From: a virus
Lineage: Duplodnaviria > Heunggongvirae > Uroviricota > Caudoviricetes
Virus record (IMG/VR): IMGVR_UViG_2872698443_000004
Span: 1 to 51,075 of that record
Length of the DNA stretch: 51,075 nucleotides
Strand: one strand, 5' to 3'
This document shows, one piece after another, positions 3,408 through 37,101 of this stretch. The notes below the pieces were generated by a model. The model ran no database searches and was not told the DNA's origin. It was given only the letters and a program-made list of their open reading frames with translations. Position numbers and translations under genes: made by a program. Within the stretch, counting starts at the first letter, position 1. Every line of letters starts with the position of its first letter.

Positions 3408-4115
3408 TTATGCCGCCTGTTTTAGTTCGTTAACTCTGATGTTCATTACCTGAACGCATTTAGCCTGCGCCTCCTCGTTGCCAGCCATTAATTGCCAGTC
3501 ACGCTGATAACGCTCGATGAGTTTTTTCTTGTCAGTTTCTGTTGACGCATAATCGCTGAAGTCTTTCAGGATTTGTTCGCAGTCAACCGATGGAGATTTC
3601 TGGTTGGTATTTTCTGGTGATGGTTTGTTATCTGATGCTGGGATTGCCCAGCCCGGCAGCGATGGAGGGAGCCAGTAAAATCCTGTTCCATCCTTCAGTT
3701 TTGCCCTGTGCCACCCCTGCTTTTTATCGGGAGATGTTTGTGCGAAACCTTCCTCAAGGTTATACAGATACCGACCGATTCCCCACTGAACGGCAGCGCG
3801 CTTCATTGCACCGGAACGACCACCTTTGACGGCTTCTACCTGCGTGTTTTCAGCAGCATCCCATTTGGTTACCCATTCGGAATCAATCTTTATTGATATG
3901 CCGCATTCAACGCCGCCGTTGTTGGGAATATCGCGGTATTCATTGCGCCATCCTGCTTTGCCACAAACATCGTCAAGGCGTTTCATGATTGCCCGGTTCG
4001 TGACATAAGCCAGCACCATAGCCCACACTTTTCCATCGCGTGTTTTACCGCTTTGCTGTATTCGCCATTCGATATCTTCGGGGCTGAATGGCTCATCGAA
4101 TTTATTCAAATCCAT
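3408..4115 (-). CDS. Rad52-like single-strand annealing (recombination) protein
   Basis: 235 aa; GIGRYLY-type motif; directly upstream of ssb in leftward operon; GAGGTG SD. Confidence 0.6.
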   Translation of the reverse strand: MDLNKFDEPFSPEDIEWRIQQSGKTRDGKVWAMVLAYVTNRAIMKRLDDVCGKAGWRNEYRDIPNNGGVECGISIKIDSEWVTKWDAAENTQVEAVKGGRSGAMKRAAVQWGIGRYLYNLEEGFAQTSPDKKQGWHRAKLKDGTGFYWLPPSLPGWAIPASDNKPSPENTNQKSPSVDCEQILKDFSDYASTETDKKKLIERYQRDWQLMAGNEEAQAKCVQVMNIRVNELKQAA

Positions 4116-4123
4116 AATTCACC

Positions 4124-4294
4124 TCAGAATGGACATGGCCCAAGGAAATAACGCTGATTTAATACTTCAGTCTTTGCCGCATTTAAAAATACGCGAACAC
4201 CTTCACGATCTCCCTTCTGGCGATACATTAACGCCTGCTGCGTGTACATGCGTCTCTGTAACTTGCTCTCCTTCACTGTGGTTGCAAGTGACAT
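4124..4294 (-). CDS. Small hypothetical protein (56 aa)
   Basis: ATG preceded by strong AAGGAGATATTC SD; overlaps 4203..4373 in another frame, so only one may be real. Confidence 0.3.
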   Translation of the reverse strand: MSLATTVKESKLQRRMYTQQALMYRQKGDREGVRVFLNAAKTEVLNQRYFLGPCPF

Positions 4295-4373
4295 GAATAT
4301 CTCCTTCGTTACCGATTAATTCTTTCATCTGACGAATGAATTCTTCGTCTGACCAGTTATCTGTAAAACTCAT
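4203..4373 (-). CDS. Small acidic hypothetical protein (56 aa)
   Basis: ATG overlaps kil stop (ATGA coupling); acidic N-terminus MSFTDNWSDEEF. Confidence 0.3.
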   Translation of the reverse strand: MSFTDNWSDEEFIRQMKELIGNEGDIHVTCNHSEGEQVTETHVHAAGVNVSPEGRS

Positions 4374-4522: not shown

Positions 4523-4638
4523 AATAAGACCTCAACTCTTTTCCATCCGTCACGTAATTTACGGGTGATTCGTTCAAGTAAAGATTCATTTAGTTGGAAG
4601 GCACCCATGCGAGCGCCTCCCGCGATTGCGTAAATCAT
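4507..4638 (-). CDS. cIII: CIII-like protease inhibitor (43 aa)
   Basis: MIYAIAGG...ESLLERITRKLRDGWKR matches lambda CIII core; AAGGA SD. Confidence 0.65.
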   Translation of the reverse strand: MIYAIAGGARMGAFQLNESLLERITRKLRDGWKRVEVLLCAMK

Positions 4639-4662
4639 GGGTGGTTCCTTATGTTGGTTTTA

Positions 4663-5631
4663 TTAGTAGGTTATTTTTGTTGCGAATACTTCGCCTTTTA
4701 CGATGGCTGTTATGATATTTTTAGCAACATCTTCTGATGCGCCAACCTTGATAAGGTCAGCAAGTATTTTGTTATTTACTTCTTTCCGGTGAGCTTTATC
4801 CTTTGCTCTACGCTCTTCTTCGTCCTTGATTCTTTTTTCTTCTGCTATTCTGGCTTGCTCTTTTGCTTCAGCTTCGCGCCGGATTCGTTCAGCCTCCTCC
4901 TGTGCTTTTCGGCGTTCTGCTTCAATTGCCGCCTGCTTTTCTCTTTCAGCTCGTTCTGCTGCCTCTTTTGCTTCGCGCTGTGCTCGTTGCTCGGCTTCAA
5001 TGCGTTCACGCTCTGCACGTTCCGCTGCGGCCTTAGCTTCTGCTTCTCGCCTTGCTGCTGCTTCAATTTCGGCTTTTGCCTTTGCTTCGGCTTCAGCTCT
5101 GGCTTTCTCTTCAGCTTCTCTTTTTAAGCGTTCTTCATGCTCTCGCTTTTCCTGCTCCGCTTTGAGTCTTGCCTCTTCTCTTTGGCGGTCAAATTCGCGA
5201 TCCATCAAAATCGCTATTTCATGGTCAGACTCAATTTGCTTTGCGAGAGCTTCAGCTGCTGCCTTAGCTTCTTCTTCGGCTTTAATTCGCGCCTGTTCTT
5301 CCTCATAATCAGTAAGAGGCTGGCGCGCCTTGGCTTTCAGTTCATCAAGGCGATCACGCACTGTCTTGCGGTTGGCATCAATTAGCTTTGGAATTTCCTT
5401 CAGTTCAGCAACAAGGTCTTTGCCAAGACCATCGAGATATGTTTTCGTCTGCGCAACTTTATACGCCAGAGAAGCGATCTCCTTTCTGCCCTTTGCCGTT
5501 GTGATATCAGGCACAAAGGACATAACTTCACGTTCAACCTTTTGGAGAATTTCTTCAATCTGGTCAGCAGACTGAAATACAATCATTGCATTTGCTTTTT
5601 CAATAACAACTAAATCTGTTACTTCACTCAT
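4663..5631 (-). CDS. Hypothetical coiled-coil protein with long E/A/K/R-rich repeat region
   Basis: 322 aa; GGAGGA SD; central ~150 aa of AEAKAKAE/REAEEK-type repeats; first gene after tL1-like terminator. Confidence 0.6.
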   Translation of the reverse strand: MSEVTDLVVIEKANAMIVFQSADQIEEILQKVEREVMSFVPDITTAKGRKEIASLAYKVAQTKTYLDGLGKDLVAELKEIPKLIDANRKTVRDRLDELKAKARQPLTDYEEEQARIKAEEEAKAAAEALAKQIESDHEIAILMDREFDRQREEARLKAEQEKREHEERLKREAEEKARAEAEAKAKAEIEAAARREAEAKAAAERAERERIEAEQRAQREAKEAAERAEREKQAAIEAERRKAQEEAERIRREAEAKEQARIAEEKRIKDEEERRAKDKAHRKEVNNKILADLIKVGASEDVAKNIITAIVKGEVFATKITY

Positions 5632-8508: not shown

Positions 8509-9159
8509 TTAAGGAAGGTTTGCTAGCTTGGCATCAACGACAACGCCAATGATTTTACAGTTCCCATTGATTTCAATCATTGGGTATTGTGGATTGAGTG
8601 GTTTCAGGAATTTTCTCCCGGCATCAATAACTAACTTTTTGAATGTCGCCTCGTTTTCTCCTTCAAGTTTGGCGACTACCAGCTTTCCATTACGTGGTTC
8701 GACTTCTGGGTCGACGAGAATAATCATCCCCTCAGGAATACTCAGTCCTGCCGGGGCAGTCATTGAGTCGCCTTTAACGTCGAGCCAAAAAGAGTCTTCA
8801 GAACAATCTACCGTTGTGTCGTACCAGTTATCTATTGCACGCCTATGATATGGCTCTACAGCTTCCATCCAACATCCTGCGCTTACCCAACTAATTAGAG
8901 GATACGAACCTCTTGGATCATGCCTGCTGTGATAGGCAATGTTTGAAAGACTATCCTCTCCTTTCAACAGGTAATCAGGGGAGCACTGCAAAGCCTTGGC
9001 TAAGGCCAATAGGTTTTCGCCATTGGGCTCAGTTTCAGATCGCTCCCATTGGGAAATAGCAACATTAGACACGCCAACCATCTTGCCAAGGGCAGCCTGC
9101 CTAATCTTGAGTTCTTTTCTGCGAGCGCGAATACGCTCACCCATCAGTTGTGTATTCAT
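8509..9159 (-). CDS. cI: CI repressor (HTH + S24 LexA-like autopeptidase)
   Basis: N-terminal XRE-type HTH; Ala-Gly cleavage site (VSAGCW); GDSM and VVAKL catalytic motifs; divergent from cro. Confidence 0.85.
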   Translation of the reverse strand: MNTQLMGERIRARRKELKIRQAALGKMVGVSNVAISQWERSETEPNGENLLALAKALQCSPDYLLKGEDSLSNIAYHSRHDPRGSYPLISWVSAGCWMEAVEPYHRRAIDNWYDTTVDCSEDSFWLDVKGDSMTAPAGLSIPEGMIILVDPEVEPRNGKLVVAKLEGENEATFKKLVIDAGRKFLKPLNPQYPMIEINGNCKIIGVVVDAKLANLP

Positions 9160-16934: not shown

Positions 16935-17258
16935 ATGAAGATGCCAGAAAAACATGACCTGTTAGCCGCCATTCTCGCGGCAAAGGAACAAGGCATCGGG
17001 GCAATCCTTGCGTTTGCAATGGCGTACCTTCGCGGCAGATATAATGGCGGTGCGTTTACAAAAACAGTAATCGACGCAACGATGTGCGCCATTATCGCCT
17101 GGTTCATTCGTGACCTTCTCGACTTCGCCGGACTAAGTAGCAATCTCGCTTATATAACGAGCGTGTTCATCGGCTACATCGGTACTGACTCGATTGGTTC
17201 GCTTATCAAACGCTTCGCTGCTAAAAAAGCCGGAGTAGAAGATGGTAGGAATCAATAA
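16935..17258 (+). CDS. S: Holin S (lambda-type, dual-start MKM)
   Basis: Matches lambda S as recalled; Met1-Lys2-Met3 dual start; hairpin CCCC-TTATT-GGGG just upstream. Confidence 0.9.
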
Positions 17259-17718
17259 TCAACGTAAGGCGTTCCTCGATATGCTGGCATGGTCAGAGGG
17301 AACTGATAACGGACGTCAGAAAACCAGAAATCATGGTTATGACGTCATTGTAGGAGGAGAGCTATTCACTGATTACTCCGATCACCCTCGCAAACTTGTC
17401 ACGCTAAACCCCAAACTCAAATCAACAGCAGCCGGACGTTATCAGCTTCTTTCCCGTTGGTGGGATGCCTATCGTAAGCAGCTTGGCCTGAAAGACTTCT
17501 CCCCCAAAAGCCAGGACGCAGTGGCATTGCAGCAGATTAAAGAACGTGGCGCTTTACCTATGATTGATCGCGGTGATATCCGTCAGGCAATCGACCGTTG
17601 CAGCAATATCTGGGCTTCACTGCCGGGTGCTGGTTATGGTCAATTCGAGCATAAGGCTGACAGCCTGATTGCAAAATTCAAAGAAGCAGGCGGAACGGTC
17701 AGAGAGATTGATGTATGA
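17242..17718 (+). CDS. R: Endolysin R (lambda-type lytic transglycosylase)
   Basis: 158 aa, matches lambda R as recalled. Confidence 0.9.
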
Positions 17719-18152
17719 GCAGAGTCACCGCGATTATCTCCGCTCTGGTTATCTGCATCATCGTCTGCCTGTCATGGGCGGTTAATCATTACCGTGATAA
17801 CGCCATCGCCTACAAAGAGCAGCGCGATAAAGCCACGTACATCATCGCTGACATGCAGAAGCGTCAACGTGATGTAGCAGAACTTGACGCCAGATACACA
17901 AAGGAGCTTGCTGATGCTAACGCGACTATCGAAAGTCTCCGTGCTGATGTTTCTGCTGGGCGTAAGCGCCTGCAAGTCGCCGCCACCTGTGCAAAGTCAA
18001 CGACCGGAGCCAGCAGCATGGGCGATGGAGAAAGCCCAGGACTTACAGCAGATGCTGAACTCAATTATTACCGTCTCCGAAGTGGAATCGACAGGATAAC
18101 CGCGCAGGTTAACTACCTGCAGGAGTACATCAGGACTCAGTGCCTGAAATAA
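17715..18152 (+). CDS. Rz: Spanin inner-membrane subunit Rz
   Basis: N-terminal TM helix then coiled-coil; follows R; contains embedded Rz1. Confidence 0.8.
17947..18099 (+). CDS. Rz1: Spanin outer-membrane lipoprotein Rz1 (embedded in Rz, +1 frame)
   Basis: MFLLGVSAC lipobox then proline-rich [13 protein letters not shown]; entirely within Rz. Confidence 0.7.
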
Positions 18153-30675: not shown

Positions 30676-30861
30676 CGTTTAACAGCCTGCCGGACGGGCT
30701 GTCTTACCTTCTCAATCCGGTTGACGCCGGGTTAATTCCTTATACAGCACTTAAAGATGGCTCTGTCGATTTGTACGACATTGCTCTCTTGAATGACCAT
30801 CTGGCGGTAAAAGCGGATAACCAGCGGCGCATTGAGAAATGGAGAGAGGATAATGAACGCT
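30624..30861 (+). other. Candidate -1 programmed frameshift site and extension of tail chaperone
   Basis: After TTTTTTG the -1 frame stays open for ~77 codons and stops at 30859-30861 just inside the tape-measure gene. Confidence 0.45.
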
Positions 30862-32841
30862 GAAACTATTAAAGATTTCCTCGTCTCGCTTGGCTTCAGT
30901 GTGGATGAGGCAGGCGCGAAAAAGTTCGGTTCTGTCCTCGCCGGTACAACTGCAAATGTCATCAAAATGGGGCTGGCTGTTGAAGGAGCTGCACTGTCCG
31001 TGGTGGCCTTTACGGCTAAGATTGCCTCCGGCCTGGATAATCTTTACTGGGCGTCACAGCGCACCGGCGCGACAGTCCAGGGAATTCAGTCTATTGGCTA
31101 TGCGGTTTCGCAGGTTGGCGGCAGCGTGGACGCTGCGCGATCTTCTCTGGAAAGCCTCTCCCGGTTTATTCGTAACAATCCCGGAGCAGAAGGCTTTCTG
31201 AATCGCCTGGGCGTACAGACCCGTGATGCAAGCGGTAACATGCGTGACATGGCCGCTATTTTTACGGGCGTTGGACAGAAACTCAGCAGCATGCCGTATT
31301 ACCGGGCTAACCAGTATGCGCAGATGCTGGGCATTGACGAAAATACCCTTATGGCGATGCGCCGGGGTGTGGGTGGTTTCTCCGGGCAGTACAGCGCAAT
31401 GGCGAAAGCTATCGGTTTCAATGCTGACGAGGCGGCCAGAAGCTCCAACAAATTCATGACCTCCCTGCGCGAGTTCGGCTCGATGGCAGGCATGGCCCGT
31501 GACAAAATCGGCTCTAATCTTGCGGGTGGGCTTGCGGGTTCGCTGGACACCCTGCGCCGCCATATCCTGGACAACTTCCCTCGTATCGAGCAGACCCTGA
31601 CGAAAGCCATAAAAGGCATTCTGGCGATCGGGGATATTATCGGGCGGCTGTTCTTCAGGCTAATTGAGGGAACATCCAGCCTTATCACCTGGTGGCAATC
31701 GCTGGATAAGCAAACGCGGGAGCTTATCTCGCTGTTTGGCGCGCTGACGATTGCGCTGCGCATTCTGAACAGTACGTTCTGGATGTCGCCGATTGGCCTC
31801 ATTACCGCGCTGGCGGCGGGGATTGCCCTTCTGTGGGAGGACTATCAGACCTGGAAGGAAGGCGGCGACAGCCTGATTGACTGGGGCAAGTGGAAGCCGG
31901 AGGTCGATGCCGCGCTGAAGATGGTTCGTGACCTGAAAGGGTCTGTTAATGAACTGGCGAAAGCGCTGGCGAAACTGCTCAATATTGACCCCAAATCATG
32001 GTCCCTGAAGTGGGATTTCAGCAACTTCATCGACCAGATGGGCGAATTCAGCAAAATGCTGAACATGATCGCCGACCTGCTCAACGCTATCAAAGATGGC
32101 CGCTGGGCTGATGCCGTCAGCATCGGCAAACAGATACTTAATCAGGGCAGCGAAAATCCGTCAGCGATGCCGATGGTTACAGACAGCGCTAACAGTACTG
32201 CCGACTGGATTAAAGAGCACTGGGGATTCGATCCCCGCAGTGTGGGCCGGACGGTACGCGGCTGGTTTGGTGATGATGAGCCGGAACAATATGCACAGGC
32301 TACGAAACGAGGAGAACGGAATAACAATCCGGGAAACCTTAATTTTGCTGGTCAGGCAGGGGCTTCTCTTGAACGCCCGGGCGGGCGATTTGCCAGATTT
32401 GAAACTGCTTTTGATGGATTACGGGCTCTTGCTCGTCAGTTAATGCTGTACGCCGGACGTGGAATAAACAGCGTGGAGAAAATTATCTCTACCTGGGCAC
32501 CTGCGGCTGATAATAACAACACAACTGCGTATATCAGGGCTGTATCGCAACGACTGGGAGTGGATCCCCGGGCTGCCCTGAATATGAGCAATCCGCAAAC
32601 CATGTCAGCATTGATGAGCAGCATTATCCAGCATGAGAATGGAAGAAATATCTATTCTCGAGAGCTGATTAATAAGGCTGCCGTGGCGGGAATTAGTGGC
32701 AAAGTGACAGAGGTTAACCAGCAAAATACCTACCACATTTACGGTGGCGGAGATCCGCACGCTGTCGGTAATGAGGTTGCACGTCGGCAACAGTCTGCAA
32801 ATGCTCAGGTCATGCGAAGTAATCAGGTGAGGGTGGGTTAG
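30853..32841 (+). CDS. Tail tape measure protein
   Basis: 662 aa from ATG 30853 (GAGAGGATA SD); long helical/TM-rich protein. Confidence 0.75.
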   Translation: MNAETIKDFLVSLGFSVDEAGAKKFGSVLAGTTANVIKMGLAVEGAALSVVAFTAKIASGLDNLYWASQRTGATVQGIQSIGYAVSQVGGSVDAARSSLESLSRFIRNNPGAEGFLNRLGVQTRDASGNMRDMAAIFTGVGQKLSSMPYYRANQYAQMLGIDENTLMAMRRGVGGFSGQYSAMAKAIGFNADEAARSSNKFMTSLREFGSMAGMARDKIGSNLAGGLAGSLDTLRRHILDNFPRIEQTLTKAIKGILAIGDIIGRLFFRLIEGTSSLITWWQSLDKQTRELISLFGALTIALRILNSTFWMSPIGLITALAAGIALLWEDYQTWKEGGDSLIDWGKWKPEVDAALKMVRDLKGSVNELAKALAKLLNIDPKSWSLKWDFSNFIDQMGEFSKMLNMIADLLNAIKDGRWADAVSIGKQILNQGSENPSAMPMVTDSANSTADWIKEHWGFDPRSVGRTVRGWFGDDEPEQYAQATKRGERNNNPGNLNFAGQAGASLERPGGRFARFETAFDGLRALARQLMLYAGRGINSVEKIISTWAPAADNNNTTAYIRAVSQRLGVDPRAALNMSNPQTMSALMSSIIQHENGRNIYSRELINKAAVAGISGKVTEVNQQNTYHIYGGGDPHAVGNEVARRQQSANAQVMRSNQVRVG

Positions 32842-33428
32842 TGGATATTCTCTCTACACTTTTTCATCAGCAGAGCAGAAAAATAGGAATGATTGTTCCC
32901 AGTGTTGTTATTTCAGAGAAGCATACAGATATGCTTGAAATAACAGAGCATCCGGTAGAGGTCGGGGCCGCTGTCGCTGATCATGCCTATAAAAAACCGT
33001 CAGAAGTGGTGATGGAGGTTGGTTTCGCCGGTGGCGGTGCATTGCTGGATTTTGCCAGTAATCTGACGGCTACCAGCATGCTCGGCCTGAGTCCTCAGCA
33101 GACGTATCAGGAGCTACTGGATCTGCAGGAAAGCCGTATCCCCTTCGATGTGGTAACCGGTAAACGGCTGTACAGCAACATGTTGATCCGGGCGCTGGAA
33201 GTGACGACGGACAAGACAACCGAAAACGTCCTGTCCGCCGTCCTCACCCTGAGGGAGGTCCTTATCTCCCGGACACAGCAGATCACTGTCGCTGATAAAA
33301 CCAACATGAAGGAAGGGGCCAGCACGTCGGCGGTACAGAACAGCGGCAACAAAACCACAAAGCCTCCAGATACTTCACTGCTGAAAAGCATCACGGGTAA
33401 CGTGGCGTCATTACTGGGGGGCGGTTGA
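32841..33428 (+). CDS. Tail protein (Mu gp43-like position)
   Basis: 195 aa, synteny after tape measure. Confidence 0.45.
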   Translation: MDILSTLFHQQSRKIGMIVPSVVISEKHTDMLEITEHPVEVGAAVADHAYKKPSEVVMEVGFAGGGALLDFASNLTATSMLGLSPQQTYQELLDLQESRIPFDVVTGKRLYSNMLIRALEVTTDKTTENVLSAVLTLREVLISRTQQITVADKTNMKEGASTSAVQNSGNKTTKPPDTSLLKSITGNVASLLGGG

Positions 33429-33730
33429 TGACAATTCAGGAAATTCCGCTGACAGCGGATAACCAGCAGTTCAGTATCGCCCTGAGCGGTGTCACCTGGC
33501 GGATTAGCATCATATGGCGAGATCCTTACTGGATTATGGACCTGCAGAACGACAGAGGAGAGCCGGTAATCTCCGGTATTCCTCTCGTCACTGGCGCTGA
33601 TCTGCTGGCGCAGTACGCCTGTATGGGGCTTGGTTTTAAGCTGTTGGTGGTCTGCGATGACAACACACAGGATTATCCCACGAAAACTGACCTGGGCAGT
33701 CGCAGCCATTTACTGGTATCAACGGAGTAA
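33425..33730 (+). CDS. Small tail/baseplate protein
   Basis: 101 aa, coupled. Confidence 0.4.
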   Translation: MMTIQEIPLTADNQQFSIALSGVTWRISIIWRDPYWIMDLQNDRGEPVISGIPLVTGADLLAQYACMGLGFKLLVVCDDNTQDYPTKTDLGSRSHLLVSTE

Positions 33731-33732
33731 GC

Positions 33733-34800
33733 ATGTCACAGAACTGGATGAGACATTTCGAGCTGCAGCTTGTGGACGGGAACGGTCAGGGAATTGAGCT
33801 AAGTGATTTCAAAGTCACCTTTACGATCGACTGGTTCAACATCAGCAGCGCGTCCCGGGTAGGGACTATCAAAATTTATAACCTCTCGGCAGATACTGTG
33901 AACCGAATTACCGGGCAGGAGTTTTCGAAAGTGCGTCTGATTGCGGGTTACGACGGTATCGCGCCGGAGGTGTCGGCAAGCGATGTCGGGACCGTGCGGG
34001 AGGTTGATGCGGCGGACGTGGGCCAGAGTGATGGCCGCAACTACGGACTGATTTTCAGCGGTGAAATTCGCTACTCGGTCACAGGAAAAGACAGCCCGGT
34101 TGATTCCTACGTCCTGATTCAGGCAGCCGATACAGATCTGGCTTTTGCCACCAGTATAACCTCACAGACGCTGGCTGCCGGTTACACGGTCGCTGATGTG
34201 AACCGTGCGCTGATGAAAGACTTCGAAGCCAAAGGTGCGACCGAAGGCCTGACGCCTGAAATGCCTGCTACTGTATTCCCCCGGGGGCGGGTACTCTTTG
34301 GCATGACGCGGCATCTTATGGATAATGTAGCCGGGCAATGTGGCGCAACATGGCAATTCGTGGATGGTCAACGCCAGATGGTGGCGAATAATGAATATGT
34401 TCACGAAGCGATTGTGCTCAACAGCGCTACCGGGCTTATTGGCATGCCGCAGCAGACTATCGGTAACGGCGTAAACGTCCGCGCGCTTATTAATCCGAAC
34501 ATCCGGGTTAACGGGCTCATTCAACTGGATCAGGCTTCAGTGTATCGTACCGCGTTGTCGAACAACGATATCGCGATGGCCGGTGGGCAGATCACCGACC
34601 AGAACACGGACGGAAATATTACGCTAAGCGGCACCACATCGCAGCCTGCCAGCATCGCAACGGATGGCGTTTATATTGTGCGTGGGATTATGTACACTGG
34701 CGACACAAGGGGGCAGGCGTGGTACATGGATATGATGTGTGAAGCACGTGGCGCGGCTGATCTACTTTCGTCCTCAGCGCAGCAAAGGATTTATTCATGA
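33733..34800 (+). CDS. Baseplate hub protein (Mu gp44 / P2 gpD-like)
   Basis: 355 aa, synteny. Confidence 0.5.
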   Translation: MSQNWMRHFELQLVDGNGQGIELSDFKVTFTIDWFNISSASRVGTIKIYNLSADTVNRITGQEFSKVRLIAGYDGIAPEVSASDVGTVREVDAADVGQSDGRNYGLIFSGEIRYSVTGKDSPVDSYVLIQAADTDLAFATSITSQTLAAGYTVADVNRALMKDFEAKGATEGLTPEMPATVFPRGRVLFGMTRHLMDNVAGQCGATWQFVDGQRQMVANNEYVHEAIVLNSATGLIGMPQQTIGNGVNVRALINPNIRVNGLIQLDQASVYRTALSNNDIAMAGGQITDQNTDGNITLSGTTSQPASIATDGVYIVRGIMYTGDTRGQAWYMDMMCEARGAADLLSSSAQQRIYS

Positions 34801-35144
34801 AGCGTATGAAGTTAGTTTTGACAATTTCGTTATTATTTTCTTGTTCAGCAGCTTTTGCTGATTTGCAATGCGGCGGATATCTACTTCATGCAGCTGATAA
34901 CGGTTGGACAAAAATCAACGGTGAGCAGGTAACATCACAGAAGATTACGTTTCTTGGTAAGAAAGATGACTGGGACAACGTTAAAACTAACATGGGCCTG
35001 ATGCCTTCTCGCGATGGCAACAATTACGGCTTTGAGTTTGTGAAGCGTAACGGAAAAGCTTTCCTGAACGTCCAGCTTCTGCAGAACAGCATGGATGCGC
35101 CTAAAATCATCGGATCTTTCCCGTGTAAAAAGGTTGATGGTTAA
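34797..35144 (+). CDS. Cargo gene A: small secreted protein with cleavable signal peptide
   Basis: MKRMKLVLTISLLFSCSAAFA then DLQCGG; two Cys; AT-rich; ATGA-coupled to baseplate hub stop; AAGGA SD. Confidence 0.6.
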   Translation: MKRMKLVLTISLLFSCSAAFADLQCGGYLLHAADNGWTKINGEQVTSQKITFLGKKDDWDNVKTNMGLMPSRDGNNYGFEFVKRNGKAFLNVQLLQNSMDAPKIIGSFPCKKVDG

Positions 35145-35312
35145 CCAAAAGTTACATTTCTGCATAGTGTTGAGTTTGTTCACATTCACTAAATAATGAT
35201 TTTTTATCGCTTGCTAGGTGGTTGCATGATCACTAAACTTTGCGAACTTTTAGCGCTCAGCTAACTTTGAATAAGTGGTGTATAGTCGTTTAAAACGACA
35301 GAGGGATTGGGT

Positions 35313-35885
35313 ATGGCGATTAGCTACGCATTTGCGCTGGCAACAATTACACAACAAATGAATCAGGTTCAGGAAGCTGTTAACGGTGCTTTCAAACCCC
35401 TGATCTCTAATGCTTGTGAACTGCCACAACGATTAGATGCTGAAGAGGTATTTCGTCGTTGTACCGCGATTGCTGCACGCGCTCAAGAAATCGAAAATAC
35501 CGCGAAGGAAGGCATGTCTCATCTCGAAGCTTTTCGAAATGGGAGAATCATTGTTGATGAGCTTCCGGAAGAGTTTTTATCCCATCTCGAAGGTCTTGCC
35601 AAGGCATGCCGAAATGCTAAAGGACATTTAGTGGATATGTTCTCTGAAGCGGAAAGATCCCCTATGTGGCAAGGCCATCTGCAAATGTTGCGCCCATTAA
35701 AACGCAAATATGTTCGTGCGTTGACCGCCGTCGAGAACACTGCAACTCAGTTGGCCGCTGAAGTTAGGCAATCGCAGCCTTTCCAGGCTGAACTCTTGTC
35801 AGATAATGTTACCCGTGAAGAGGCTATTGAACTGATCTCAACATCGCATAAGATGCTGGGAGCCAACGCCCCTAAATGGATGTGA
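35313..35885 (+). CDS. Cargo gene B: hypothetical helical protein (190 aa)
   Basis: ATG 35313 with GAGGG SD (track ORF begins with TTG 35307); no signal peptide; stop 1 nt before gene C start. Confidence 0.55.
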   Translation: MAISYAFALATITQQMNQVQEAVNGAFKPLISNACELPQRLDAEEVFRRCTAIAARAQEIENTAKEGMSHLEAFRNGRIIVDELPEEFLSHLEGLAKACRNAKGHLVDMFSEAERSPMWQGHLQMLRPLKRKYVRALTAVENTATQLAAEVRQSQPFQAELLSDNVTREEAIELISTSHKMLGANAPKWM

Positions 35886-35886
35886 C

Positions 35887-36303
35887 ATGGCAAAAGTCAG
35901 TATCACGGGAGAATTGCGTCATTTAGCTGCAGCACATAAGTATGCTCAAATGCTTGCCGATTATATTTCAAAGGGTTCCCAGTTCTGGTGTTTTGGTTCG
36001 TTAGGCGGTTTTGAACGTAACTATGATGCGATGGCTGCCAACATCAGGAAAATTCACTTAAAGCTACCTGGCGATAAACCCTGGCCTCCAGAAGCATCTC
36101 TGAGTGAACGGACATGTGATAATTTTTTGGTATATGCTCAGCATCTTTATATCGATGAACACTATCAGATATTGGCAATCATCAGCCCAAACGCTCATCA
36201 GCAAGCTGATTCGATGCTTCCCCGGCTGATAAAATTAGCAGAGGAAACCTTCATAGAACTTCCTCCTGATGAACTCGAAAAATTGAAAACCTACGATTCA
36301 TAA
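35887..36303 (+). CDS. Cargo gene C: possible YafO-like toxin (138 aa)
   Basis: Central segment IHLKLP...RTCDNFLVYAQH...ILAIISPNAH resembles recalled YafO-family pattern; tightly coupled to gene B. Confidence 0.4.
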   Translation: MAKVSITGELRHLAAAHKYAQMLADYISKGSQFWCFGSLGGFERNYDAMAANIRKIHLKLPGDKPWPPEASLSERTCDNFLVYAQHLYIDEHYQILAIISPNAHQQADSMLPRLIKLAEETFIELPPDELEKLKTYDS

Positions 36304-36304
36304 A

Positions 36305-36326
36305 CCCGCCACCCGGCGGGTTTTTT
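36305..36326 (+). terminator. Rho-independent terminator closing the cargo cassette
   Basis: CCCGCC-ACCC-GGCGGG hairpin followed by TTTTTT. Confidence 0.6.
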
Positions 36327-36345: not shown

Positions 36346-37101
36346 ATGGCAGTATCTGACCAGACCCGCAGCGGCGACCTTGCTGAAACATTCAAATCTG
36401 AACGGGAAACAACAAAGAACCAGATCCGAGTCGCTTTGCCTGGCATCGTCCAGTCATTCGATCCTGACGCTGTGACGGCGGTTGTGCAGCCTTCTATCCG
36501 TTCGGTTGAAACGGATAACGACGGCAATCGCGTTACCAAAAATTACCCGCTGCTGGTGGATGTGCCGGTGGTATTCCCGCGCGGCGGAGGCTGCACGCTG
36601 ACCTTTCCGGTAAAAGAAGGCGACGAGTGCCTGCTGATCTTTTCCGACCGTTGTATCGATTTCTGGTGGCAGAGCGGCGGCGTTCAGGAGACCGTCGACC
36701 CGCGCCAGCATGACTTGTCTGATGCGTTCGCCATCGTTGGCCCGCAGTCGCAAGCACAGAAAATCAGCGGTATCAGTACCAGCGCCGCGCAGCTGCGAAC
36801 CGATGATGGTGCGGCGTTCGTAGAGGTTGCCGCAGGACATAACATCACCGTTCAAACACCGGGCCAGCTCACGGCTACGGCTGAAGGTGGAACAACAATC
36901 ACATCCCCGACTATCACGCTGAACGGCAACGTAACGATTAATGGCAATCTGTCTCAGGGAATGGGCGAAAGTGGCGGTACTGCGACGATGCTTGGGCCGG
37001 TGACGGTGACTAACGATGTAAAAGCTGGTGGTAAGAGCCTGATGACGCACACGCACGGCGGAGTACAGACCGGCGGCGGTAACACAGGAGCGCCTAACTG
37101 A
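36346..37101 (+). CDS. Baseplate spike protein (Mu gp45 / P2 gpV-like)
   Basis: 251 aa, Gly-rich C-terminus; synteny. Confidence 0.5.
   Translation: MAVSDQTRSGDLAETFKSERETTKNQIRVALPGIVQSFDPDAVTAVVQPSIRSVETDNDGNRVTKNYPLLVDVPVVFPRGGGCTLTFPVKEGDECLLIFSDRCIDFWWQSGGVQETVDPRQHDLSDAFAIVGPQSQAQKISGISTSAAQLRTDDGAAFVEVAAGHNITVQTPGQLTATAEGGTTITSPTITLNGNVTINGNLSQGMGESGGTATMLGPVTVTNDVKAGGKSLMTHTHGGVQTGGGNTGAPN

What the first reader, a model, noticed from the sequence alone, without database searches (positions are those of the whole stretch)
34797..35144. Secreted small protein translationally coupled to the baseplate hub gene
The start codon of gene A overlaps the stop of the baseplate hub gene (ATGA), yet the protein has a classic Sec signal peptide and AT-rich codons. 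A periplasmic or envelope protein expressed with tail genes is unexpected. In the lysogen it could act in superinfection exclusion or receptor masking.
Basis: partly seen in the sequence, partly recalled or inferred. Interest (0 to 1): 0.5.

Follow-up and report, generated by a model that had tools for sequence, protein, structure and literature searches.

The report
Exported phage protein beside baseplate hub
A small gene wedged between two tail-tip genes of an E. coli prophage encodes a protein that is almost certainly exported to the periplasm and is not part of the virus particle; it belongs to an uncharacterised, fast-diversifying family, most likely used to protect the cell envelope against other phages, but that function is untested.

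Summary
ORF 34797..35144 (+) encodes 115 aa. Its ATG overlaps the TGA of the baseplate-hub gene (ATGA), it has its own AAGGA ribosome-binding site, and its GC is 42% against 54-57% in the flanking tail genes.

Every full-length homologue examined (116 of 116) has a signal-peptidase-I type signal peptide. 114 of 116 have exactly two cysteines in the mature part, at the two ends of a confidently modelled 8-stranded beta-barrel.

The gene is not a free-standing moron. In 42 Enterobacterales loci it sits directly after the hub gene, usually overlapping its stop, and in the simplest loci the spike gene follows at once. Other cargo, here a YafO-like toxin module, is inserted after it.

It is not structural. 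Providencia phage PSTCR3 goes straight from hub to spike. Hafnia phage yong1 has replaced it with a different secreted protein.

Two surface patches are hypervariable. Alleles swap on otherwise constant tail modules and do not track spike, tape-measure or fibre types.

The family has no characterised member: no Pfam, NCBIfam or PADLOC match, only PHROG 3443 (unknown function), and no paper found. A UniProt label hinting at MliC lysozyme inhibitors failed the tests.

Superinfection exclusion is the best guess, but it is inferred.

The parts
33733..34800 (+). Baseplate hub gene (355 aa). Its TGA stop overlaps the gene A start.
   Evidence: phrog_196 baseplate hub, E=1e-88. Pfam E217_GP41 at 22.8 bits, below the cut-off. 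Synteny is Dit-like, plug, hub, spike.
34785..34789 (+). Shine-Dalgarno-like AAGGA, 7 nt upstream of the gene A ATG, inside the hub coding sequence.
   Evidence: Sequence. A purine-rich motif lies at the same distance in most of the related loci printed.
34797..34800 (+). ATGA start/stop overlap between the hub gene and gene A (translational coupling).
   Evidence: The hub-stop to A-start gap is -11 to +19 nt in 38 of the 42 related loci where it could be measured, mostly ATGA or TAATG overlaps.
34797..34859 (+). Signal peptide (residues 1-21, MKRMKLVLTISLLFSCSAAFA). Predicted signal peptidase I cleavage is after A21. This allele also holds a lipobox-like LLFS-C16.
   Evidence: Rule-based check on 116 homologues. 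The AF2 model shows an N-terminal helix at residues 3-15 with lower pLDDT.
34860..35141 (+). Mature domain (residues 22-115): an 8-stranded beta-barrel with Cys25 (34869-34871) and Cys110 (35124-35126), presumably forming a disulfide. The stop codon is at 35142-35144.
   Evidence: AF2 model with pLDDT 86.7 and 8 strands. C25 and C110 are invariant. 114 of 116 homologues have exactly 2 Cys in the mature part.
34875..34913 (+). Hypervariable patch 1 (residues 27-39: strand 2 and the strand 2-3 loop).
   Evidence: Mean column entropy 1.87 bits, against 0.37-0.49 bits in the conserved core.
34944..34991 (+). Hypervariable patch 2 (residues 50-65: end of strand 4, the strand 4-5 loop, start of strand 5).
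   Evidence: Mean column entropy 1.49 bits. Indels occur here between allele types.
35145..35306 (+). AT-rich spacer (36% GC) with a promoter-like site at 35170-35197. It marks the boundary between gene A and the separately inserted cargo.
   Evidence: The cargo downstream of gene A differs between loci that share nearly identical gene A (L001).
35307..36303 (+). Neighbouring cargo, not part of gene A. It comprises a 192-aa ORF (35307..35885, probably starting at the ATG at 35313) and a YafO-family toxin homologue (35887..36303).
   Evidence: PF13957 YafO_toxin E=4e-17; phrog_35514 and phrog_1651. RefSeq annotates the homologue as 'type II toxin-antitoxin system YafO family toxin'.
36302..36323 (+). 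Intrinsic-terminator-like hairpin closing the cargo module, just before the spike gene.
   Evidence: Stem of 9 pairs with 6 GC pairs, followed by a T run.
36346..37101 (+). Baseplate central spike gene (251 aa). This is the gene that directly follows gene A in the simplest related loci.
   Evidence: A Pfam spike N-terminal domain at E=9e-44 and the GpV Apex motif. In L044-L048 the spike match begins 21-67 nt after the gene A stop.

Best explanation
Gene A encodes a non-structural, Sec-exported, soluble periplasmic protein. It is a ~94-residue disulfide-closed 8-stranded beta-barrel, and it occupies a conserved 'secreted-protein slot' between the baseplate hub and central spike genes of SEN34-like temperate myoviruses of Enterobacterales.

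Shown here:
- It is a real, conserved gene.
- It is translationally coupled to the hub gene in nearly all relatives.
- It carries a signal peptide throughout the family.
- It is absent or replaced in viable related phages.
- It has one strongly conserved part (residues 40-49 and 66-112).
- It has two hypervariable patches (27-39 and 50-65) whose alleles are exchanged horizontally, independently of the rest of the tail module.

Inferred:
- It is made together with the tail proteins, and possibly at a low level from the prophage.
- It is exported, and DsbA closes the barrel.
- In the periplasm it acts as an exclusion or protection factor against incoming phages. It would interfere with the step at which a contracted tail's spike and tape-measure complex crosses the periplasm and peptidoglycan.
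- This resembles in kind T4 Spackle, P1 Sim or HK97 gp15.
- The conserved end of the barrel would bind a conserved partner, and the variable end would be under arms-race pressure.
For: Gene reality and conservation:
- 404 clusters at 90% identity.
- phrog_3443 at E=1e-54.
- 19 invariant columns in 44 sequences.

Export:
- All 116 full-length homologues keep a signal peptide with an AXA-like site, although the signal sequence itself is the most variable segment at 2.57 bits.
- There are exactly two invariant Cys, at the two ends of the barrel.
- A 292-aa variant (P0134) in the same slot carries the domain behind an LSGC lipobox.

Fold: the AF2 model has pLDDT 86.7 and 8 strands.

Not structural:
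- PSTCR3 has the hub directly followed by the spike.
- yong1 keeps only a 23-aa relic and has another signal-peptide protein coupled to the hub by GTGA.
- There are no hits to virion proteins.

Slot conservation: 42 loci in Enterobacterales all have gene A next to the hub, with a gap of -11 to +19 nt in 38 of them. The basal order hub-A-spike is seen in L044-L048.

Diversification typical of conflict genes:
- Among 82 locus pairs with hubs at least 90% identical, the mature N-half of gene A averages 61% identity (minimum 37%). Dit, plug, W, J and I average 90-95%.
- Seven Photorhabdus loci share single spike-C and TMP-N types (and one TMP-C type wherever it could be typed) but carry five gene A types.
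- Identical gene A types recur on different hub backgrounds.
- Co-resident prophages in four genomes always carry different alleles, 32-72% identical.

Precedent: exclusion genes sit inside tail operons next to the apparatus they oppose (PMC3594210). Periplasmic exclusion proteins are also known (PMC7677548, PMC7650644).
Against: - No functional homology to any exclusion or defence family: Pfam, NCBIfam, PADLOC and PDB sequence searches were all empty.
- There is no sign of prophage-state expression. No promoter-like site lies immediately upstream, no terminator follows gene A, and promoter-like sites in the region are not above chance (5 found against 3.5 +/- 2.1 expected). Coupling to a late gene suggests late expression, which is an odd time for exclusion.
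- Alleles do not co-vary with spike C-terminus (rho -0.10), TMP C-terminus (rho 0.25, n=43) or fibre (rho -0.24). The expected self-targeting signature of an exclusion factor is therefore absent.
- Hypervariability could also reflect relaxed constraint on surface loops.
Confidence: 0.4

Rival explanations
1. Periplasmic inhibitor or immunity protein against a peptidoglycan hydrolase. It would work like MliC/PliC/PhiA or a type VI immunity protein. Conserved loops at one end of the barrel (NGExVTSQK, RDGNNYGF) would plug the active site of a lysozyme-like enzyme. The target could be animal-host lysozyme (lysogenic conversion), a competitor's effector, or the tail-borne hydrolase of incoming phages.
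For: - UniProt auto-names one member (A0A090UZ02, P0119) 'C-type lysozyme inhibitor domain-containing protein'.
- The general design matches: ~100 aa, a signal peptide, an 8-stranded barrel, and Cys near both ends.
- The phage's own tape-measure protein ends in a peptidoglycan hydrolase domain, which matches PDB 7q47 'Endolysin' at E=5e-13 and 9vvp Gp29 at E=4e-21.
Against: - None of 30 diverse members hits Pfam MliC (PF09864), even at E<=10.
- hhalign against an MliC alignment gives 19% probability, and the aligned stretch covers only the signal peptide and the N-terminal part.
- The tape-measure hydrolase domain type changes between relatives, SLT in some and the 7q47-like type here, without gene A changing family. 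In Photorhabdus, gene A alleles change on a constant TMP C-terminus.
Confidence: 0.2
2. A lytic-cycle helper rather than a prophage-expressed factor. It would be made late with the tail, exported, and act at or after lysis. For example, it could keep progeny from injecting into debris or into the already infected cell, or condition the envelope for release.
For: - Coupling to a late structural gene is conserved across about 40 loci.
- There is no own promoter or terminator.
- The slot holds a secreted protein even when gene A is replaced, as in yong1 gp67 and the EKP1 107-aa protein. This suggests that secretion at the time of tail synthesis is what matters.
- T5 Llp shows that protecting progeny from receptor-bearing debris is a real selective pressure (PMC9586334).
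Against: - A soluble periplasmic protein is poorly placed to mask outer-surface receptors.
- The window already has a complete lambda-type lysis cassette: holin, R lysozyme identical in family to 1am7, and Rz.
- PSTCR3 manages without any gene in the slot.
- Allele hypervariability is not expected for a housekeeping lysis helper.
Confidence: 0.2
3. Host-directed lysogenic-conversion factor unrelated to phages or hydrolases. Examples would be a periplasmic binding protein, or a stress or virulence modulator in the manner of Bor or Lom.
For: - The composition is foreign: 42% GC against 54-57% in the flanks.
- Stray chromosomal copies exist outside prophages in Mixta, between yciY and yciI/tonB, and next to an Hcp gene in another genome.
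- The barrel fold is shared with small ligand-binding proteins such as avidins and lipocalins.
Against: - 41 of 42 genome loci have it glued to the hub gene.
- The family is tiny, with 66 representatives among 1.84 billion proteins, and confined to Enterobacterales prophages.
- There is no autonomous transcription unit.
Confidence: 0.12
4. A virion or assembly component of the baseplate whose N-terminus is a membrane anchor or assembly tag rather than a cleaved signal peptide.
For: It sits between the hub and spike genes and is translationally coupled, like bona fide baseplate genes.
Against: - It is missing in PSTCR3 and disrupted in the isolated phage yong1.
- The solved Pam3/E217-type baseplates that match the neighbouring genes contain no corresponding component, since there were no PDB sequence or fold hits.
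- The AXA site and Cys pair are conserved.
- Alleles swap on constant tails.
Confidence: 0.04

Closest known systems
HK97 gp15 moron (superinfection exclusion; Cumby et al. 2012, summarised in PMC3594210)
   Same: A small envelope-targeted accessory protein encoded inside the tail operon, next to genes for the DNA-delivery apparatus. Its GC is foreign. It has relatives outside prophages. It is absent from related phages.
   Different: gp15 is an inner-membrane protein of the YebO family with its own promoter and terminator, and it is expressed from the prophage. Gene A is a soluble periplasmic beta-barrel with no detectable own promoter or terminator. It overlaps the upstream stop codon and has no sequence relationship to gp15.
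T4 Spackle (gp61.3), periplasmic inhibitor of the tail-spike lysozyme gp5 (PMC7677548, PMC7650644)
   Same: A ~10 kDa Sec-exported soluble periplasmic phage protein. It acts on the periplasmic stage of contractile-tail penetration. This is the best analogue for the mechanism proposed here.
MliC/PliC/PhiA periplasmic lysozyme or peptidoglycan-hydrolase inhibitors (Pfam PF09864)
   Different: There is no HMM or profile-profile similarity. The MliC signature loop as I recall it, S-x-S-G-A-x-Y (visible as SASGARY in E. coli MliC), is not present. The structural similarity is no better than to unrelated barrels.
Cor (phi80/N15/T1) and T5 Llp receptor-blocking lipoproteins (PMC9586334 for Llp)
   Same: Exported phage proteins encoded beside tail or receptor-binding genes that exclude superinfecting phages.
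   Different: Those are outer-membrane lipoproteins that plug FhuA. The lipobox is not conserved in the gene A family (8 of 116). Alleles do not track fibre types. There is no sequence similarity in Pfam, PHROGs or PADLOC.
Lambda Lom and Bor
   Same: Envelope proteins encoded in or near the late region of a lambdoid prophage. These are classic examples showing that such genes in late operons are not exceptional (PMC3594210).
   Different: From memory, Lom is an outer-membrane beta-barrel and Bor a lipoprotein, both with host-virulence roles and prophage expression. Gene A is unrelated in sequence and probably soluble.

Membership tests
Sec / signal peptidase I secreted proteins | Positively charged n-region, a hydrophobic h-region of about 10 or more residues, and small residues at -1 and -3 of the cleavage site. 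| tested here: met
   Window protein: K2, R3 and K5; LVLTISLLF; A-F-A|D. Family: 114 of 116 have K/R in the first 8 residues. 116 of 116 have a hydrophobic 10-mer and an AXA-like site. Position -1 is Ala in 107 of 116. This was a rule-based check only; SignalP was not available.
Sec / signal peptidase I secreted proteins | Actual export and cleavage in vivo. | not testable with these tools
   Needs PhoA or BlaM fusions, fractionation, and N-terminal sequencing.
Bacterial lipoproteins (signal peptidase II) | A conserved lipobox [LVI][ASTVI][GAS]C at the end of the signal peptide. | tested here: not met
   The window allele has LLFS-C16, but only 8 of 116 homologues have any lipobox-like motif. 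The close relative P0006 (82% identical) lacks the Cys. The exception is the fused 292-aa variant P0134, which has LSGC.
Moron (Hendrix/Juhala definition, PMC3594210) | An extra gene that is absent from related phages. | tested here: met
   PSTCR3 goes from hub directly to spike. yong1 and EKP1 have other genes in the slot.
Moron (Hendrix/Juhala definition, PMC3594210) | Base composition different from the neighbouring genes. | tested here: met
   GC is 42.2% for gene A, 54.0% for the hub and 57.1% for the spike.
Moron (Hendrix/Juhala definition, PMC3594210) | Own promoter and terminator, forming an autonomous transcription unit expressed from the prophage. | tested here: not met
   The start codon overlaps the hub stop. 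No promoter-like site lies directly upstream; the nearest are 400-500 nt inside the hub gene and are at chance frequency. No terminator follows gene A. The consensus scan is crude, so a weak internal promoter cannot be excluded.
MliC/PliC C-type lysozyme inhibitors (PF09864) | A significant match to the family HMM. | tested here: not met
   No PF09864 hit for the window protein, for P0119, or for any of 30 diverse members at E<=10. True MliC homologues all carry PF09864.
MliC/PliC C-type lysozyme inhibitors (PF09864) | Profile-profile similarity over the barrel. | tested here: not met
   hhalign of A2 against the MliC alignment A3 gives probability 19% over 43 columns at the N-terminus. Caveat: A3 is shallow, since all members are at least 74% identical.
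MliC/PliC C-type lysozyme inhibitors (PF09864) | The same fold as solved PliC/MliC structures, better than generic barrels. | tested here: inconclusive
MliC/PliC C-type lysozyme inhibitors (PF09864) | Inhibition of lysozyme activity. | not testable with these tools
   Needs an enzyme assay.
Known superinfection-exclusion / anti-phage defence families (PADLOC, Pfam, PHROG annotations) | Sequence homology to a described exclusion or defence protein. | tested here: not met
   PADLOC returned 0 families and Pfam 0. The only PHROG match, phrog_3443, is 'unknown function'. No papers were found.
Known superinfection-exclusion / anti-phage defence families (PADLOC, Pfam, PHROG annotations) | Reduces infection by the same or other phages when expressed. 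| not testable with these tools
   Needs plating, adsorption and DNA-entry assays.
Baseplate / virion structural proteins of Pam3/E217-type myoviruses | Present in all members of the tail lineage and homologous to a solved virion component. | tested here: not met
   Only 20 of 154 phage records with a hub homologue carry gene A. It is absent from PSTCR3. There were no PDB sequence or fold matches to virion proteins.

The most novel reading that the evidence does not exclude
The position immediately downstream of the baseplate-hub gene is a dedicated, translationally coupled 'secretory slot' in a whole lineage of temperate myoviruses. Its usual occupant, the phrog_3443 barrel, would be a new family of periplasmic anti-penetration proteins with cassette-like specificity. 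A conserved end would dock on an invariant element of the envelope or of contractile-tail delivery complexes. Two hypervariable loops would set which competing phages (or which counter-measures) are recognised. This would add a periplasmic, allele-diversified layer of phage-phage competition, present in roughly 7% of complete E. coli genomes.
Probability: 0.22. Interest if true: 0.65.

Novelty: new member of a known kind. Interest (0 to 1): 0.4.

Why it matters
Prophage-encoded envelope proteins are a major but poorly catalogued source of phage resistance and of host-fitness traits. This family has no characterised member, no Pfam or NCBIfam model and no literature, yet the hub-spike region that carries it occurs in 393 of 5,426 complete E. 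coli genomes. That count includes EPEC E2348/69. The family is also found in Klebsiella, Salmonella, Yersinia, Photorhabdus, Serratia and Pantoea prophages.

If it blocks phage penetration, it would matter for phage-therapy host-range prediction. It would also give a second, structurally unrelated example, after T4 Spackle, of exclusion in the periplasm.

The comparative picture gives a ready-made experimental design: allele and patch swaps tested against a phage panel. That picture consists of a fixed slot, conserved coupling, two hypervariable patches and alleles shuffled independently of the tail.

If it turns out to have no phage-related role, it is simply one more uncharacterised moron-like gene.

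Tried and rejected
1. MliC/PliC membership. I followed this up because UniProt names one member a 'C-type lysozyme inhibitor domain' protein. I fetched E. coli mliC, collected homologues, built alignment A3 and ran hhalign. The probability was 13.6% against the single sequence and 19% against the profile. A Pfam scan of 30 members found no MliC hit. Rejected as a membership claim and kept only as a functional analogy.

3. Co-variation of gene A alleles with spike, tape-measure, fibre, Dit, plug and wedge proteins, to find a partner. There was no convincing signal. The only correlations were with the adjacent hub C-terminus, which linkage explains, and a weak rho of 0.25 with the TMP C-terminus.

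4. Type VI immunity link. The distant homologue P0147 lies near an Hcp gene, but its neighbours have no recognisable effector domains. Dropped.

5. A conserved host orthologue. The chromosomal copies next to tonB turned out to be confined to Mixta, with only 2 clusters. This is not a widespread host gene.

6. Own promoter, terminator or RNA element around gene A. Nothing was above chance.

7. Literature. No paper mentions the family, its accessions or its PHROG. The SEN34 paper has no proteomics or functional data.

8. The search for related loci with the divergent alignment A2 failed because no stretch was conserved enough. It was repeated with A1.
Full report
**Observation.** The window carries a lambdoid-type prophage with a contractile tail.
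- It has a CI-like repressor at 8509..9159 (-).
- Its lysis cassette is at 16935..18152: a lambda S-family holin, a lambda R-type lysozyme that matches PDB 1am7 at E=7e-105, and Rz.
- Its tail module is of the SEN34/Pam3/E217 type.
- The prophage ends after the tail-fibre assembly gene (~40801) and is followed by a chromosomal penicillin-binding-protein gene.

Within the tail module the gene order is as follows:

| Coordinates | Gene |
|---|---|
| 30832..32841 | tape measure |
| 32841..33428 | Dit-like baseplate protein |
| 33425..33730 | Pam3-gp18-type plug |
| 33733..34800 | hub (phrog_196, E=1e-88) |
| 34797..35144 | gene A |
| 35145..35306 | 162-nt AT-rich spacer |
| 35307..35885 | 192-aa ORF |
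| 35887..36303 | YafO-family toxin homologue |
| 36302..36323 | terminator-like hairpin |
| 36346..37101 | central spike |
| from 37101 | sheath initiator, baseplate J and downstream genes |

The ATG of gene A overlaps the hub TGA (ATGA), and an AAGGA lies 7 nt upstream. Gene A has 42.2% GC and 45.7% GC3. The hub has 54.0% and 60.4%, the spike 57.1% and 61.1%.

**Is the gene real, and is the product exported?** The protein matches a dedicated PHROG (phrog_3443, unknown function) end to end at E=1e-54. It has 404 homologue clusters at 90% identity in the 5.8-billion-protein collection.

An exhaustive HMM search of 1.84 billion representatives found only 66 at E<=1e-3. The family is therefore real, but small and taxonomically narrow.

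In a 44-sequence alignment, 19 columns are invariant, including C25 and C110. These two Cys remain invariant when members down to 23% identity are added.

A rule-based analysis of the 116 full-length homologues gave:

| Feature | Count |
|---|---|
| Hydrophobic core and small-x-small site 1-4 residues before the first Cys | 116 of 116 |
| K/R in the first eight residues | 114 of 116 |
| Ala at position -1 | 107 of 116 |
| Exactly two Cys in the mature part | 114 of 116 |

The signal region is the most variable part in sequence (2.57 bits per column), yet it always keeps these physico-chemical properties. That is the behaviour of genuine signal peptides.

The window allele also contains a lipobox-like LLFS-C16. 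Only 8 of 116 homologues have anything similar, and an 82%-identical relative lacks the Cys. The family as a whole is therefore soluble periplasmic, and lipidation of this particular allele stays an open detail.

AlphaFold2 with the family alignment gives a confident model: pLDDT 86.7, with more than 90 over most of residues 30-100. It shows an N-terminal helix (the signal peptide) followed by eight beta-strands. The two Cys lie in the first and last strands. This is consistent with a disulfide that closes the barrel, which can only form outside the cytoplasm (inference).

**Comparative anatomy.** tblastn against 50,697 phage records finds gene A in 20 phages. These include Salmonella SEN34 (Brunovirus), Klebsiella phages and prophages including a Wanchaivirus, Yersinia YP3, Citrobacter Omnitron and four E. 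coli phages. Hub homologues occur in 154 records.

A scan of one genome per GTDB species found 42 loci, nearly all labelled Enterobacterales. The one exception is a record titled Chryseobacterium sp. Genera include Enterobacter, Shimwellia, Yersinia, Photorhabdus, Pantoea, Citrobacter, Raoultella, Serratia and Rahnella.

Mapping the window's tail proteins onto all loci shows gene A directly after the hub gene in essentially every case. The distance from hub stop to gene A start is -11 to +19 nt in 38 loci. ATGA (-4) and TAATG (-1) overlaps dominate, and a purine-rich motif precedes the start.

In five loci (L044-L048) the spike match begins 21-67 nt after the gene A stop. The basal arrangement is therefore hub-A-spike. 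Elsewhere, 0.4-4 kb of varied cargo lies between A and the spike. In E. coli genomes this cargo includes DUF4282, DUF2335, thioredoxin-domain and STY1065-family genes, and YafO modules.

In the window that cargo behaves like a classical moron. It has a promoter-like site at 35170-35197 and a strong terminator at 36302-36323. It is separable from gene A: strain AH19B041 has a 98%-identical gene A followed by entirely different genes.

Gene A is therefore not an autonomous moron. It is an operon-embedded gene that shares the compositional signature of foreign DNA.

**Not a virion component.**
- Providencia phage PSTCR3 has the hub gene overlapping the spike gene directly, with nothing in between.
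- Hafnia phage yong1 has a hub 78% identical to the window's. It keeps only the last 23 codons of gene A as a relic (SSMDAPKLIGSFPCKKVPG). In front of the relic is a different protein. Its true start is a GTG overlapping the hub stop (GTGA), and it reads VNKRTVFLILSLFVPIAVMA|APGK..., a signal peptide that the database annotation misses.
- Phage EKP1 has yet another small signal-peptide protein in the slot.
- A 292-aa variant (P0134) in the same slot fuses a lipoprotein N-domain (lipobox LSGC) to the gene A barrel.

The constant feature of this position is thus 'a protein exported at the time the hub is made', not any one structural part. No search linked gene A to a virion protein.

**Diversification.** Column entropy splits the mature protein into conserved and variable segments:

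| Residues | Mean entropy (bits) | Class |
|---|---|---|
| 40-49 (INGExVTSQK) | 0.49 | conserved |
| 66-96 | 0.37 | conserved |
| 104-112 | 0.40 | conserved |
| 27-39 | 1.87 | variable, with indels |
| 50-65 | 1.49 | variable, with indels |

In an up-and-down barrel with the modelled strand order, the two variable loops (strands 2-3 and 4-5) lie at the same end as the termini. The conserved polar loops (NGExVT, PxRDGNNY, QNSMDAP) lie at the other end. This follows from topology alone and was not checked on coordinates.

Among 82 pairs of loci whose hubs are at least 90% identical, mean identities were as follows:

| Segment | Mean identity |
|---|---|
| Gene A mature N-half | 61% (minimum 37%) |
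| Gene A C-half | 87% |
| Dit, plug, sheath initiator, J, I | 90-95% |
| Spike C-half | 67% |
| Tape-measure C-terminus | 61% |
| Fibre | 71% |

Only the envelope-contacting segments are comparably variable.

Typing at 80% identity shows seven gene A types on one hub type. It also shows five gene A types in Photorhabdus prophages that share a single spike-C type, a single TMP-N type and, wherever it could be typed, a single TMP-C type. The same gene A types recur on different hub backgrounds.

Pairwise identity of the gene A N-half does not correlate with spike-C (rho -0.10), fibre (-0.24) or TMP-N (-0.11). It correlates only weakly with TMP-C (0.25, n=43).

Genomes with several such prophages carry different alleles: Pantoea stewartii has 4 intact copies, and Serratia sp. 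Ag1, Pseudescherichia vulneris and Apirhabdus have 2 each. The alleles are 32-72% identical in all nine pairs.

In complete E. coli genomes the hub-spike region occurs in 393 of 5,426. The two examples I opened, EPEC E2348/69 and strain 03_3013, whose gene A is too diverged from the window allele for megablast to align across it, carry other alleles in the same place.

**What could it do?** No sequence method assigns a function.

A UniProt auto-name on one member suggested MliC, which would give a neat mechanism, so I tested it.
- HMM searches are negative for all 30 diverse members.
- hhalign against an MliC alignment gives 19% probability.

Membership is therefore rejected. The resemblance in design remains as an analogy: a small periplasmic disulfide-bonded barrel with conserved loops at one end.

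The tape-measure protein of this prophage ends in a peptidoglycan-hydrolase domain that matches the PDB 'Endolysin' 7q47 at E=5e-13 and Gp29 of 9vvp at E=4e-21. Some relatives have a canonical SLT domain there instead. Gene A alleles do not follow these changes, which argues against a simple inhibitor of the phage's own tail enzyme.

The most economical reading combines five observations:
- the protein is exported;
- it is dispensable for virions;
- it is physically tied to the genes for the membrane-piercing hub and spike;
- it diversifies like a conflict gene;
- it follows the pattern of known exclusion genes placed inside tail operons (HK97 gp15, PMC3594210) and of a known periplasmic exclusion protein (T4 Spackle, PMC7677548 and PMC7650644). 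P1 Sim is a further example from my own knowledge.

I therefore rank a periplasmic exclusion or anti-penetration role first, at about 0.4.

The main weakness is expression. There is no sign of an own promoter, and the coupling to a late gene is conserved. A lytic-cycle role is thus a serious rival at about 0.2, as is a hydrolase-inhibitor or immunity role at about 0.2. The lack of co-variation with the phage's own delivery proteins means that, if the protein excludes, its specificity is not simply 'self'.

The anatomy is right, and 'could act in superinfection exclusion' is reasonable.
- 'Unexpected' overstates the case, given Lom, gp15, Cor and Llp.
- 'In the lysogen' is unsupported.
- The suggested search for homologues in Cor/Imm-like exclusion families returned nothing in Pfam, PHROGs or PADLOC.
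- Receptor masking is the less likely variant, because most members are soluble and alleles ignore fibre type.

**Verdict.** This is a genuine, well-conserved but uncharacterised exported accessory protein family. It sits in a fixed, translationally coupled slot of SEN34-like prophages.

In kind it is a new member of the known class of phage-encoded envelope accessory proteins, and its mechanism is open. Interest is moderate at 0.4. A specialist would not be surprised that it exists. However, the family has no characterised member, it is common in clinically relevant Enterobacterales, and the slot-and-allele pattern makes the exclusion hypothesis directly testable.

Noticed in passing
window 35307-36323: A separate cargo module lies between gene A and the spike. 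It has a 192-aa protein of unknown function (phrog_35514, probably starting at the ATG at 35313), followed one base later by a YafO-family toxin homologue (PF13957, E=4e-17). A promoter-like site lies upstream at 35170-35197, and a strong terminator at 36302-36323. The upstream partner is not YafN-like, so this may be an atypical toxin-antitoxin or defence pair. YafO homologues sit in the same slot in Shimwellia, Photorhabdus and Rosenbergiella loci (L012, L022, L025, L033).
   Followed up: partly
L006 (Hafnia phage yong1, NC_073022.1) 4568-5091: gp67 is annotated from an internal ATG (4622). The reading frame actually opens at a GTG at 4568 that overlaps the hub stop (GTGA), and it encodes a signal peptide (VNKRTVFLILSLFVPIAVMA). 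Behind it lies a 23-codon relic of the gene A C-terminus. So a different secreted protein has replaced gene A in the same coupled slot. It has no Pfam, PHROG or PDB match.
   Followed up: partly
L008 (phage EKP1, OM284015.1) 4799-5122: A third, unrelated small protein with a signal peptide (VNKTYISLLFLLSFSSFA) occupies the hub-spike slot. The record is labelled as an Elizabethkingia phage, although its tail genes are 47-81% identical to the enterobacterial ones.
   Followed up: no
L002 (SEN34, KT630649.1) 4001-4342; L004 (ST340-VIM1phi10.1) 4001-4342: The database annotations of the gene A homologues start at an internal ATG (77 aa) and cut off the signal peptide. The full ORFs start at a TTG or ATG next to the hub stop.
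   Followed up: yes
window 32269-32838 (tape-measure C-terminus): The tape-measure protein ends in a peptidoglycan-hydrolase-like domain with the NNPGN motif. It matches PDB 7q47 'Endolysin' at E=5e-13 and the N-terminus of Gp29 in 9vvp at E=4e-21, but no Pfam model. Relatives (L053, yong1, EKP1) carry a canonical SLT domain at the same place, so the enzymatic tip of the tape measure is a swapped module.
   Followed up: partly
L052 6001-6357; L058 5001-5327 (metagenome contigs; Mixta gaviniae homologue P0320): Stray copies of the gene A family (~31-34% identical, with signal peptide and both Cys) sit outside any prophage, between yciY and yciI/tonB next to cls. They are apparently confined to Mixta, with 2 clusters in 5.8 billion proteins.
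   Followed up: partly
L057 5001-5342 (GCA_000773975.1): Another distant family member (P0147) lies in a non-phage context, downstream of a small lipoprotein gene and about 1.4 kb upstream of an orphan Hcp (type VI secretion) gene. The neighbours have no recognisable domains.
   Followed up: partly
L053 6001-6879 (P0134): A 292-aa variant in the same hub-spike slot has a lipoprotein signal (LSGC) and a ~190-aa N-terminal domain of unknown function, fused to the gene A barrel.
   Followed up: no
L018, L036, L043, L044, L045 (Pantoea stewartii ATCC 8199, NZ_CP046558.1): One genome holds five loci with gene A homologues: four intact alleles that all differ, and one truncated copy lacking the signal peptide. 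Two of the loci (L044, L045), like L046-L048 in other genomes, match the window only in Dit, hub, gene A and spike. Their wedge and tape-measure genes do not match. This suggests a second tail lineage, or a tailocin-like element, that shares the hub-A-spike core.
   Followed up: no
window 17242-17718: The endolysin is a lambda R-type transglycosylase (PDB 1am7, E=7e-105), yet it gets no Pfam or NCBIfam hit even at E<=10 in these library copies. This is a reminder that empty HMM scans here do not always mean an unknown protein.
   Followed up: yes
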